The translations under genes and the position numbers were made by a program. A stretch of 64,000 nucleotides of DNA. Origin: an uncultured Gammaproteobacteria bacterium (GTDB lineage Bacteria > Patescibacteriota > Patescibacteriia > Magasanikbacterales > GWA2-37-8). Below the pieces are notes generated by a model that had not been told where the DNA came from, did no database searches, and saw only the letters and a program-made list of their open reading frames with translations. This document shows positions 35,518-36,250 of the stretch, piece by piece. The first letter of the stretch is position 1, and every line of letters begins with the position of its first letter. Location: contig CAZINT010000002.1 in NCBI GenBank assembly GCA_964540825.1, positions 128,993 to 192,992 of the forward strand, given 5' to 3'.

Positions 35518-35557
35518 AGCCGACGTGTACCCTCTTGGGACACGTCGGCTTTTAGTT
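35518..35557. terminator. Hairpin AGCCGACGTGT–(11 nt)–ACACGTCGGCT followed by TTTTAGTT. It is a bidirectional terminator between the aminotransferase (+) and NUDIX (−) genes.
   Basis: An 11-bp perfect stem was read from the sequence. Confidence 0.55.
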
Positions 35558-35611
35558 GAGTCTTGTTCTCGCTCTATAGGAACGGGCCCTTCCTCGCACC
35601 CGGTGAGGAAG

Positions 35612-36175
35612 CTAGCGCGAGAGCTTGTACCCGAGATGAGGAAGGGAGCGGGTGGTCGCCGCGACCGAGAAGGTCTCGGTGGTCTCGCCGCCGAGGACGC
35701 GACCCAGCCAGTCTTCGAGCGGTATGCTGACGACCTCGATCTCGACCTCCTCGCTGTCGGGGGTGGGCTCACCCTCGAGCACGCACTCAAGTGCGAGGTA
35801 GAGCTGGACCCGTCCGCTCGAGTGTCGCGGGATGATGTCGACGTGTCCGAGGTCGATGAGCTGCCCCGCACGGTGGCCGGTCTCCTCCCTGACCTCGCGC
35901 CGCGCCGCCTCGTTGAGCGACTCTCCATCGTTGCAGTAGCCGCCCACGAGGCCGATCTGGATGCGGTCTGCACCCTGCTTGTACTCGCGTACGGCGAGCA
36001 CATTTAGATCGACAGTCACCGGCAGGACAACTACCGAATCCTGCAAGGTGTAGAGATAGAAATCATGCACCTTTCCGAACGGGTCCTCGAAGTCCTGGTG
36101 CACGATCTGCTTGCCATAGTGGCGCGGGCCTATGGGAACTGCTTCACCTACTTTTTTCCACCGTCGTACTGCCAT
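35612..36175 (-). CDS. NUDIX hydrolase with high-GC codon usage
   Basis: The Nudix box reads GGYCNDGESLNEAARREVREETG. The length is 187 aa. The GC content and GC3 are markedly higher than in neighbouring genes. Long antisense ORFs here are GC artefacts. Confidence 0.8.
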   Translation of the reverse strand: MAVRRWKKVGEAVPIGPRHYGKQIVHQDFEDPFGKVHDFYLYTLQDSVVVLPVTVDLNVLAVREYKQGADRIQIGLVGGYCNDGESLNEAARREVREETGHRAGQLIDLGHVDIIPRHSSGRVQLYLALECVLEGEPTPDSEEVEIEVVSIPLEDWLGRVLGGETTETFSVAATTRSLPHLGYKLSR

Positions 36176-36222
36176 AACGATCCTCCATACAATTCGTTTA
36201 GGGGGAAACAGCTGAGCATATC

Positions 36223-36250
36223 AAAAAACCTGCTTTTTGTCAAGCAGGTT
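36223..36250 (-). terminator. Rho-independent terminator for SDR gene 36282..37274: ACCTGCTT–TTTGTC–AAGCAGGT, with T6 on the minus strand
   Basis: An 8-bp perfect stem. An A-run lies on the plus strand upstream, which is a T-run on the minus strand downstream. Confidence 0.55.

What the first reader, a model, noticed from the sequence alone, without database searches (positions are those of the whole stretch)
35518..36250. High-GC NUDIX hydrolase cassette inserted between two terminators inside the glycan locus
The 187-aa NUDIX gene (35612–36175) has clearly higher GC and GC3 than its neighbours. It is bracketed by a bidirectional hairpin terminator (35518–35557) and by the terminator of the upstream SDR gene (36223–36250). 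It therefore looks like an independently acquired single-gene cassette dropped into an intergenic terminator region. NUDIX enzymes in sugar clusters can hydrolyse NDP-sugars, for example GDP-mannose or ADP-ribose, so it may have been co-opted to edit nucleotide-sugar pools. The same high-GC signature as the lipoprotein island hints at a common donor.
Basis: partly seen in the sequence, partly recalled or inferred. Interest (0 to 1): 0.5.

Follow-up and report, generated by a model that had tools for sequence, protein, structure and literature searches.

The report
GC-rich NUDIX gene in glycan locus
A small gene for a sugar-nucleotide-cleaving enzyme, with its own promoter and terminator, sits in a surface-sugar gene cluster and is much more GC-rich than its neighbours; the same GC-rich gene accompanies the same cluster in distantly related bacteria, so it is an old companion rather than a fresh import, and something unexplained keeps it GC-rich.

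Summary
ORF 35612-36175 (-) is an intact 187-aa NUDIX hydrolase with GC 0.63 and GC3 0.78. Neighbours and housekeeping genes have GC 0.38-0.47 and GC3 0.33-0.48. Two real hairpins bracket the gene.

The gene is a self-contained unit with its own near-consensus sigma-70 promoter, set inside the upstream terminator hairpin, and its own terminator. It is not a one-off insertion. Homologues of 47-63% identity lie in the same sugar-modification module in six other uncultured lineages. That module holds a UGDH-like-methyltransferase fusion, an SDR, a C-methyltransferase and an aminotransferase or reductase. The homologues carry the same promoter motif and diverge in step with the flanking genes, but they differ in orientation and exact position.

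All of them are GC-rich (GC3 0.57-0.82) in 38-47% GC contexts, although synonymous sites have turned over. Neutral amelioration is rejected for the best-dated pair. An overlapping gene, a conserved RNA structure and high-expression codon usage were all excluded.

Predicted fold and profile searches place the protein with the ADP-ribose/NDP-sugar pyrophosphatases (Ndx2, NDPSase, NudK, NudE). The substrate is unknown. The "common donor" link to the lipoprotein island is not supported, but that island shows the same maintained GC-richness.

The parts
35612..36175 (-). NUDIX hydrolase coding sequence (187 aa), ADP-ribose/NDP-sugar pyrophosphatase type, GC 0.63, GC3 0.78
36181..36186 (-). Ribosome-binding site GGAGGA, 5 nt upstream of the ATG
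   Evidence: read directly from the sequence
36215..36243 (-). Sigma-70-type promoter TTGACA-17 nt-TATGCT with TG (extended -10). It is the best promoter-like site in 34-38 kb. The -35 element (CTTGACAA) is invariant upstream of the NUDIX gene in all 7 family loci
36227..36250 (-). Intrinsic terminator hairpin of the upstream SDR gene (AACCTGCTT-GACAAA-AAGCAGGTT + T run). Its loop and 3' arm carry the -35 element of the NUDIX promoter
35515..35553 (.). Strong hairpin between the convergent aminotransferase and NUDIX genes. It has a T run on the + strand and a T-rich tract on the - strand, so it is plausibly a bidirectional terminator
   Evidence: the terminator scan did not call it
36282..37274 (-). 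Flanking SDR (NDP-sugar dehydratase/epimerase family, 330 aa), the conserved module partner
37286..38926 (-). UDP-glucose-dehydrogenase-like N-terminal and central domains fused to a SAM methyltransferase (546 aa), a conserved module partner
34421..35497 (+). DegT/LegC-like sugar aminotransferase (358 aa as called in the public assembly), convergent with the NUDIX gene
33109..34362 (+). NDP-sugar C-methyltransferase (Methyltransf_13/14), a conserved module partner

Best explanation
The gene is a long-standing accessory transcription unit of a conserved nucleotide-sugar modification module, not a recent insertion.

What the unit contains (shown). (1) A near-consensus sigma-70 promoter with an extended -10 element, whose -35 hexamer lies in the loop of the terminator hairpin that ends the upstream SDR operon. 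(2) A Shine-Dalgarno site. (3) A 187-aa NUDIX enzyme. (4) A terminator hairpin shared with the convergent aminotransferase operon.

What the protein looks like (shown). It has an intact Nudix box. Its predicted two-domain fold, an N-terminal beta domain plus a Nudix domain, matches the dimeric ADP-ribose/NDP-sugar pyrophosphatases Ndx2, Bd-NDPSase, NudK, NudE and NudF.

What it most likely does (inferred). It cleaves the pyrophosphate bond of a nucleotide-sugar to give NMP and sugar-1-phosphate. This would limit or clear a nucleotide-activated intermediate or side-product of the C-methylated amino or reduced deoxy-sugar branch encoded around it. The nucleotide and sugar are undetermined. The window's protein carries the ADPRase proline marker and lacks the Asp-x-Lys marker of GDP-mannose-preferring NDPSases.

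Evolution. The family probably entered this module once from a high-GC lineage and has since diverged in step with it, being inverted or repositioned as a promoter-to-terminator block (inferred from shown synteny). Its GC-rich codons are kept by a force acting on the coding sequence only, either selection on synonymous sites or a fixation bias. That maintenance is shown indirectly; its cause is unknown.
For: Enzyme class. Pfam NUDIX scores 52.9 bits. The family profile hits T. thermophilus Ndx2 (2yvm, 1e-16), Bdellovibrio NDP-sugar hydrolase, NudE, ADPRases and NudK. The AlphaFold model (pLDDT 88) matches 2yvm over its full length at TM 0.82, and also matches 5c7q, 1mqw and 3o61. The Nudix box is intact in all 16 family members.

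Module membership. Family members lie beside the same SDR, UGDH-methyltransferase fusion, C-methyltransferase and aminotransferase or reductase genes in L002, L003, L004, L112/113 and L115, and beside UGDH-like genes in L114. Identities run in parallel: for L004-L112, NUDIX 81, SDR 95 and UGDH-MT 81; for L003-L115, NUDIX 79 and CMT 89; for the window against the others, NUDIX 47-62, SDR 59-62, UGDH-MT 52-56 and CMT 48-64.

Autonomy. CTTGACAA followed by a TGn-type -10 element is conserved upstream in 7 of 7 loci, whatever the orientation, and is otherwise almost absent from the loci. Each locus has its own downstream hairpin. Orientation and position differ between loci.

A functional slot. 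In L118 an unrelated Gmm-like NUDIX of native GC occupies the same place. In L120 a weak HD-like hit, below the Pfam cut-off, does so.

Maintained GC. GC3 is 0.57-0.82 in all seven loci against 0.26-0.57 in the flanks, and it does not rise with host GC3. Fourfold sites differ at 0.32-0.78. For L004/L112 a neutral decay model allows at most 0.58-0.74 today, and 0.81 is observed. The upstream 100 nt are AT-rich (0.37-0.45) in every locus.
Against: No enzyme assay exists, so the substrate and even catalytic activity are inferred. NCBIfam NudE scores 68 bits against a cut-off of 169, so the protein is not an orthologue of any named enzyme. Only seven loci with DNA were examined, from 16 known members, and two pairs among them are close relatives. 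The window's SDR is closer (70-78%) to SDRs of other lineages, including Patescibacteria, than to those of the other NUDIX loci (59-62%), so the module is mosaic and strict co-inheritance is not proven. In both close pairs the NUDIX gene has lower synonymous divergence than its flanks (0.39 against 0.55-0.62, and 0.32 against 0.40). That fits constraint on synonymous sites, but it also fits a younger, laterally re-spread cassette. The decay argument rests on small counts (9 G<->C differences). No close relative with an empty or occupied site could be examined.
Confidence: 0.6

Rival explanations
1. One reading: a single-gene cassette recently and independently acquired by this genome from a high-GC donor and dropped between two terminators. 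High GC is then simply DNA that has not yet ameliorated.
For: There is a strong GC and GC3 contrast with sharp boundaries. The nearest outgroup relatives live in genomes of 56-72% GC. A relative with 91-94% identical PilT and sugar-nucleotidyltransferase proteins (GCA_964510495.1) contributes no NUDIX above 63% identity to the 5.8-billion-protein collection.
Against: The same relative also contributes no SDR above 78% identity, so the whole module is missing or unsampled there, not the NUDIX gene alone. The closest NUDIX anywhere is 63% identical, and all examined family members sit in low-GC glycan modules with the same AT-rich promoter. No donor-like copy, mobility gene, attC site or target duplication was found.
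Confidence: 0.12
2. A mobile promoter-gene-terminator cassette that keeps re-spreading between genomes carrying the module. Each resident copy is then younger than its flanks and has not had time to ameliorate.
For: Orientation and position vary between loci. The unit is self-sufficient. Synonymous divergence is lower than in the flanks in both close pairs. The NUDIX identity pattern (the window is as close to L002, L003 and L114 as they are to each other) differs from the SDR pattern, where the window is the outlier.
Against: Spreading among low-GC hosts cannot create or keep high GC. It would need an unsampled high-GC reservoir that shares the AT-rich promoter. The G<->C clock puts the L004/L112 NUDIX split at no less than 0.27-0.57 of the flank age, which is too old for GC3 0.81 under neutral decay. 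No recombinase or repeat boundaries were found.
Confidence: 0.2
3. High GC reflects a second function of the DNA or RNA: an overlapping gene in another frame, or a conserved structured RNA.
For: Long open frames overlap the gene (35525-36007 + and 35362-36003 -). All seven mRNAs fold somewhat more stably than their codon-shuffled versions (z from -0.8 to -4.7, against a mean of -0.5 in control genes).
Against: The alternative frames are interrupted in several orthologues and are not longer than composition predicts in most of them. Their translations are only about 60% identical in pairs whose NUDIX proteins are 79-81% identical. Synonymous sites vary freely between G and C. The RNAalifold consensus is weak, at -35.6 kcal/mol over 591 columns with a covariation term of +0.07. 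There is no Rfam match.
Confidence: 0.03
4. Assembly or binning artefact: a chimeric contig joining DNA of two organisms.
For: The sources are metagenome-assembled, and some are co-assemblies.
Against: The identical gene with both flanks is present in an independent single-run assembly, a 52-kb Logan contig. The same arrangement recurs in six further assemblies from other samples.
Confidence: 0.01

Closest known systems
Dimeric ADP-ribose/NDP-sugar pyrophosphatases: T. thermophilus Ndx2 (2yvm), Bdellovibrio Bd3179 NDPSase (5c7q/5c7t), E. coli NudK/YffH (3o61), NudE (1vhg), NudF and Mt-ADPRase
   Same: There is a full-length match to the two-domain fold (TM 0.82 to 2yvm; profile E 1e-16). The Nudix box is intact. 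Pro is present at G(box)+16 in 14 of 16 family members, as in ADPRases (markers from PMC4629899).
   Different: Identity to all of them is only 15-25%. The protein is far below the NudE equivalog cut-off. The window's protein has E-T-T where NDPSases that prefer GDP-mannose have Asp-x-Lys, while five family members have E-T-K. It is encoded as its own unit inside a glycan module, and its substrate is unknown.
GDP-mannose mannosyl hydrolase Gmm/WcaH/NudD of colanic-acid and O-antigen clusters (from my own knowledge of the family; NCBIfam NF011963)
   Same: It is a NUDIX enzyme encoded inside a polysaccharide gene cluster and thought to trim a nucleotide-sugar pool. A Gmm-like NUDIX occupies the same slot of the same module in L118.
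   Different: It belongs to a different NUDIX subfamily. The window's protein does not hit the Gmm model and is about 27% identical to the L118 protein over only 41 residues. Gmm cleaves at the sugar C1, giving GDP plus sugar, rather than cleaving the pyrophosphate bond.
Compositionally atypical genes taken as recent horizontal transfers, with later amelioration
   Same: Both show a sharp GC and GC3 contrast with the host genome, and the outgroup relatives here live in high-GC phyla.
   Different: The contrast persists across lineages whose synonymous sites are saturated, and it is confined to the coding sequence, with an AT-rich conserved promoter. That is not what amelioration predicts.

Membership tests
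Nudix hydrolase superfamily (PF00293) | Nudix box G-x5-E-x7-R-E-U-x-E-E-x-G-U and a Pfam score above the gathering cut-off | tested here: met
   G79..H101 fits the box in all 16 family members, with H or Y at the last, normally aliphatic, position. The Pfam score is 52.9 bits against a cut-off of 21.1.
ADP-ribose/NDP-sugar pyrophosphatase group (NudF/NudE/NudK/Ndx2/NDPSase) | Two-domain architecture: an N-terminal beta domain used for domain-swapped dimerisation, plus the Nudix fold | tested here: met
   The model (pLDDT 88, pTM 0.80) aligns over 178-186 columns to 2yvm, 5c7q, 1mqw and 3o61 at TM 0.71-0.82. Dimerisation itself was not tested.
ADP-ribose/NDP-sugar pyrophosphatase group | Proline 16 residues after the Gly of the Nudix box (the ADPRase marker, PMC4629899) | tested here: met
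   P116 (G100+16) is present in 14 of 16 members. P0015 and P0016 have Ala.
NDPSase in the sense of de la Pena et al. 2015 (GDP-mannose-preferring) | An Asp-x-Lys motif at the N-terminus of helix alpha3 | tested here: not met
   The window's protein has E164-T-T166 before helix 168-181 and no Lys in 160-172. Five members have E-T-K. The alignment to solved NDPSases is approximate in this region.
NudE (NCBIfam NF008736 equivalog) | A score at or above the curated cut-off of 169 bits | tested here: not met
   The score is 68 bits.
GDP-mannose mannosyl hydrolase (Gmm/WcaH) | A match to the family model | tested here: not met
   There is no hit for the window's protein at E <= 0.001. The unrelated NUDIX in L118 hits the model weakly.
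Any NUDIX pyrophosphatase | Mg-dependent hydrolysis of a nucleoside-diphosphate-X substrate | not testable with these tools
   This needs purified protein and a substrate panel.
Recently acquired genomic islet or mobile gene cassette (integron-type or similar) | A recombination site (attC or flanking repeats), a nearby recombinase, and an empty site in close relatives | tested here: not met
   The only inverted repeats are the two terminator hairpins, and there are no flanking direct repeats longer than 10 nt of note. The ten ORFs submitted to Pfam, five of them genes that flank the NUDIX gene, include no recombinase. The empty-site test was not possible because no close relative covers this junction.

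The most novel reading that the evidence does not exclude
In this group of uncultured bacteria a small set of genes keeps G/C-ending codons by active selection or a fixation bias, inside genomes whose other genes, spacers and promoters are AT-rich. The set includes the NUDIX family and at least two lipoprotein genes of the window. This would mark a gene-specific, coding-sequence-level constraint that current explanations do not cover. Candidates are codon-biased translational control through the tRNA pool or tRNA modification, or deliberate throttling of translation from strong promoters.
Probability: 0.35. Interest if true: 0.65.

Novelty: new member of a known kind. Interest (0 to 1): 0.4.

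Why it matters
For glycobiology, the result defines a small, uncharacterised NUDIX subfamily with 16 members in 5.8 billion proteins. It is tied to one nucleotide-sugar tailoring module, and that module also recruits unrelated hydrolases to the same slot. This suggests that cleaving a nucleotide-sugar is a needed step or safeguard of the pathway, and it points to a concrete enzyme to assay.

For genome evolution, it is a clear case where atypical GC content would be misread as recent horizontal transfer. The composition is a conserved trait of the gene across saturated synonymous divergence. The window's other GC-rich genes show the same pattern even more sharply, with 16 G<->C against 3 strong<->weak changes at fourfold sites. 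If this is selection on synonymous sites, it offers a tractable system for asking why particular genes need G/C-ending codons in an AT-rich genome.

Tried and rejected
1. Overlapping gene. The alternative frames are not consistently open, and their translations are only about 60% identical where the NUDIX proteins are about 80% identical. The one antisense frame with high identity shares its wobble positions with the gene and is full of stop codons.

2. Conserved RNA structure or riboswitch. RNAalifold gives no covariation and Rfam finds nothing. The modest excess of mRNA stability over codon-shuffled versions is probably local compositional heterogeneity.

3. Codon usage of highly expressed genes. 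The ribosomal protein L27 gene in the window prefers NNA and T- or C-ending codons (GC3 0.44), the opposite of the NUDIX gene.

4. The idea that the glycan locus is unusually AT-rich and the NUDIX gene is native. Housekeeping genes next to the window have GC 0.45-0.47.

The GTDB genome scan found one family member, which is the same locus as L003.

6. A high-GC reservoir judged from amino-acid composition. The wider family (44 cluster representatives at E <= 1e-30) mixes low-GC-like and high-GC-like compositions, so this was not informative.

7. Literature searches for a NUDIX enzyme together with a C-methyltransferase in O-antigen clusters, and for maintained GC-rich transferred genes, gave nothing directly relevant.

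Full report
**1. The observation**

On the minus strand an ORF runs from 36175 to 35612. It has an ATG start, a GGAGGA site 5 nt upstream and a TAG stop, and it encodes 187 aa. It matches Pfam NUDIX at 52.9 bits against a cut-off of 21.1, and its Nudix box G79-x5-E-x7-REVREETGH is intact.

Its GC is 0.626, with GC1/2/3 of 0.71/0.39/0.78. All other long ORFs from 5 to 64 kb have GC 0.38-0.47 and GC3 0.33-0.48. Housekeeping genes just beyond the window's left end (Dxs, a Zwf-Gnd fusion, the CCA-adding enzyme, Dus and PilT) have GC 0.45-0.47 and GC3 0.41-0.46. The gene is therefore an outlier against the genome, not only against an AT-rich glycan locus. Among 564-nt windows it lies at z = 4.4, and only one other stretch of the window (about 2.8-4.9 kb) is comparably GC-rich.

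Both hairpins are real. The one at 35515-35553 folds at about -27 kcal/mol (z = -4.4), with a U run on the plus strand and a U-rich tract on the minus strand. The one at 36227-36250 on the minus strand is a canonical terminator for the SDR gene.

**2. Anatomy of the unit**

The best promoter-like site in 34-38 kb is TTGACA-17 nt-TATGCT, preceded by TG, on the minus strand at 36243-36215. Its -35 hexamer lies in the loop and 3' arm of the SDR terminator hairpin, and the NUDIX start codon is 40 nt downstream. The unit is therefore terminator/promoter, ribosome-binding site, gene and terminator. It sits where the minus-strand operon (UGDH-like-methyltransferase fusion, then SDR) meets the plus-strand operon (C-methyltransferase, then DegT/LegC-like aminotransferase).

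**3. Relatives**

A search of 5.8 billion proteins found only 16 family members of near full length (plus one 115-aa fragment, P0017), and the nearest is 63% identical. I obtained DNA context for six further independent lineages.

- In L003 (GCA_964570525.1, labelled uncultured Gammaproteobacteria), L004 and L115 the gene lies at the same junction between the aminotransferase and the SDR. There it is inverted relative to the window: it follows the aminotransferase and converges on the SDR.
- In L112/L113 it sits alone on the opposite strand, between the SDR and the C-methyltransferase.
- In L002 it sits at the end of the module operon, after the glycosyltransferase.
- In L114 it sits between two UGDH-like genes.

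Protein identities run in parallel with the flanks. For L004-L112 they are NUDIX 81, SDR 95 and UGDH-MT 81. For L003-L115 they are NUDIX 79 and C-methyltransferase 89. For the window against the others they are NUDIX 47-62, SDR 59-62, UGDH-MT 52-56 and C-methyltransferase 48-64.

Upstream of the gene, all seven loci share an invariant CTTGACAA followed 16-18 nt later by a TGn-type -10 element. L114 has TGcTATAAT. In the window, L002 and L004 the -35 lies in the loop of a terminator-like hairpin. The motif is otherwise almost absent from the window and from the 120 loci held at that point. The downstream sequences are not conserved, but each contains a hairpin.

The promoter-gene block has therefore stayed together while being inverted or moved within the module. 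That is cassette-like behaviour over evolutionary time. It is not a one-off insertion into this genome.

**4. The slot**

The window's SDR has many homologues at about 70% identity. One of them (L118, GCA_030700025.1) lies in the same module. At the same place there is a different NUDIX, weakly Gmm-like and only marginally similar to the window's protein, and its GC is native (0.43). Another (L120) has at that place a 230-aa protein with only a weak HD-domain hit (E 7e-4, 20.2 bits, below the Pfam cut-off of 22), and carries a distant ADPRase-like NUDIX elsewhere in the cluster. Non-orthologous hydrolases in one slot suggest that the pathway needs such an activity.

**5. Function**

A profile of the family hits T. 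thermophilus Ndx2 (1e-16), the Bdellovibrio NDP-sugar hydrolase, NudE, ADP-ribose pyrophosphatases and the GDP-mannose pyrophosphatase NudK. The AlphaFold model (pLDDT 88) matches these over its full length, including the N-terminal beta domain that forms their swapped dimer, with TM 0.82 to 2yvm.

Sequence markers from the NDPSase paper (PMC4629899) give a mixed result. The ADPRase proline at G+16 is present in 14 of 16 members. The Asp-x-Lys marker of GDP-mannose preference is absent from the window's protein (E-T-T), while five members have E-T-K. The protein is far below the NudE cut-off.

I infer that it hydrolyses a nucleotide-sugar to NMP and sugar-1-phosphate, and so limits or clears an activated intermediate of the surrounding C-methyl/amino-sugar branch. 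The substrate cannot be named. The window also encodes a LegB above its curated cut-off, a guanylyltransferase-like enzyme and NeuB, so GDP-linked sugars are present in the locus. That link to the NUDIX gene is circumstantial.

**6. The composition puzzle**

In all seven loci the gene is 9-21 GC points above its surroundings. Its GC3 is 0.57-0.82 against 0.26-0.57 in the flanks, and the highest values occur in the most AT-rich hosts. GC3 is high along the whole gene. The 100 nt upstream are AT-rich (0.37-0.45) in every locus.

Synonymous sites are not frozen. The codon alignment shows free G/C interchange, and fourfold sites differ at 0.32-0.78.

For the pair L004/L112 the flanks are saturated for strong/weak changes (0.44 of a maximum 0.45). 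Using G<->C differences as a clock, the NUDIX split is at least 0.27-0.57 as old as the flanks. Neutral decay from GC3 = 1.0 would leave at most 0.58-0.74, and 0.81 is observed. The counts are small, so this is an inference and not a proof.

The following explanations were tested and rejected:

- An overlapping gene.
- A conserved RNA structure.
- The codon usage of a highly expressed gene, since the L27 gene in the window prefers the opposite codons.
- An AT-rich locus in a GC-richer genome.
- An assembly chimera.

The nearest outgroup relatives (28-40% identity) lie in genomes of 56-72% GC (Dehalococcoidia, Anaerolineae, Planctomycetota, Krumholzibacteriia and others), where their composition is native. 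An ancient high-GC origin is therefore plausible, but it does not explain the lack of amelioration. A younger, re-spreading cassette remains a rival. It fits the lower synonymous divergence of the gene relative to its flanks, but it needs a high-GC reservoir that was not found.

**7. The 'lipoprotein island'**

The other GC-rich stretch holds separate GC-rich genes divided by AT-rich spacers (GC 0.35): an 88-aa Cys-rich ORF (2390-2656), a lipoprotein (3115-3648, GC3 0.78) and a DUF3455 lipoprotein (3917-4567, GC3 0.97).

A close relative (L122, GCA_964510495.1; PilT 94% and NTP-transferase 91% identical) has the same island at the same place, with one more paralogue. All of its island genes are GC-rich. 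At fourfold sites the DUF3455 pair shows 16 G<->C but only 3 strong<->weak differences, whereas four native genes show 36 and 251.

So these genes are also lineage-conserved, with maintained G/C-ending codons. They are not recent imports from a donor shared with the NUDIX gene. The promoter regions of the NUDIX gene and the 177-aa lipoprotein gene agree at 24 of 28 positions, TTGACAAAAAGC.G.TTTT.T.ATATGC. Because I derived the pattern from these two sites, this is only a lead. A consensus TTGACA promoter also precedes the L27 gene.

**8. Verdict**

The reading as a freshly acquired cassette is replaced by an old, autonomous, module-associated NDP-sugar pyrophosphatase gene whose GC-rich coding sequence is a conserved and apparently maintained trait. 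The enzyme is a new member of a known kind. The maintained composition is the unusual part, and it is unexplained.

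Noticed in passing
window 2390-4600; L122 2800-6700; L123: There is a second GC-rich stretch made of separate GC-rich genes split by AT-rich spacers (GC 0.35): an 88-aa Cys-rich ORF, a 177-aa lipoprotein and a 216-aa DUF3455 lipoprotein with GC3 0.97. It is conserved at the same place in a close relative (GCA_964510495.1), which has an extra paralogue. At fourfold sites the DUF3455 pair shows 16 G<->C and 3 strong<->weak differences, against 36 and 251 in native genes. 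This implies that G/C-ending codons are maintained.
   Followed up: partly
window 3694-3721 (-) and 36216-36243 (-): The promoter regions of the 177-aa lipoprotein gene and the NUDIX gene agree at 24 of 28 positions (TTGACAAAAAGC.G.TTTT.T.ATATGC). The lipoprotein copy is also present in L122 and L123. It may be a shared regulatory element or chance among strong promoters. The pattern was derived from these two sites.
   Followed up: partly
L118 7038-7589; L120 7079-7771 and 319-960: In related modules the slot next to the SDR holds an unrelated, weakly Gmm-like NUDIX of native GC (L118), or a 230-aa protein with only a weak HD-domain hit (E 7e-4, below the Pfam cut-off), with a distant ADPRase-like NUDIX elsewhere in the cluster (L120). 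This looks like non-orthologous replacement of a hydrolase function.
   Followed up: partly
window 37286-38926 (-): A 546-aa fusion joins UDP-glucose/GDP-mannose-dehydrogenase N-terminal and central domains to a SAM methyltransferase domain, which replaces the usual C-terminal nucleotide-binding domain. It is conserved next to the SDR in every module seen. Its function is unknown.
   Followed up: no
window 16130-16476 (+): A lone ribosomal protein L27 gene (90 aa, above the TIGR00062 cut-off) with a near-consensus promoter (TTGACA-17-TATACT) lies inside the glycan region, between a SEDS-family-like gene and an epimerase gene.
   Followed up: partly
window 44271-46001 (-) and 26156-27160 (+): LegB (4,6-dehydratase, 484 bits, above the curated cut-off of 475) lies next to a guanylyltransferase-like sugar-1-phosphate nucleotidyltransferase, and a NeuB-type synthase lies elsewhere in the window. 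The locus therefore also encodes a legionaminic-acid-type nonulosonic acid route that uses GDP-sugars.
   Followed up: no
window about 2644-2844 and 3917-4567: In the single-run Logan assembly of SRR11567520 the contig carrying PilT ends at window position about 2844, and the DUF3455 gene sits on its own 1984-nt contig. The assembly thus breaks around the GC-rich island, perhaps from strain variation or uneven coverage.
   Followed up: no
one search hit list: The window's SDR is 68-73% identical to SDRs annotated in Patescibacteria and Omnitrophota genomes. That is closer than to the SDRs of the other NUDIX-bearing loci (59-62%). The module is therefore widespread and mosaic across very distant phyla.
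   Followed up: no
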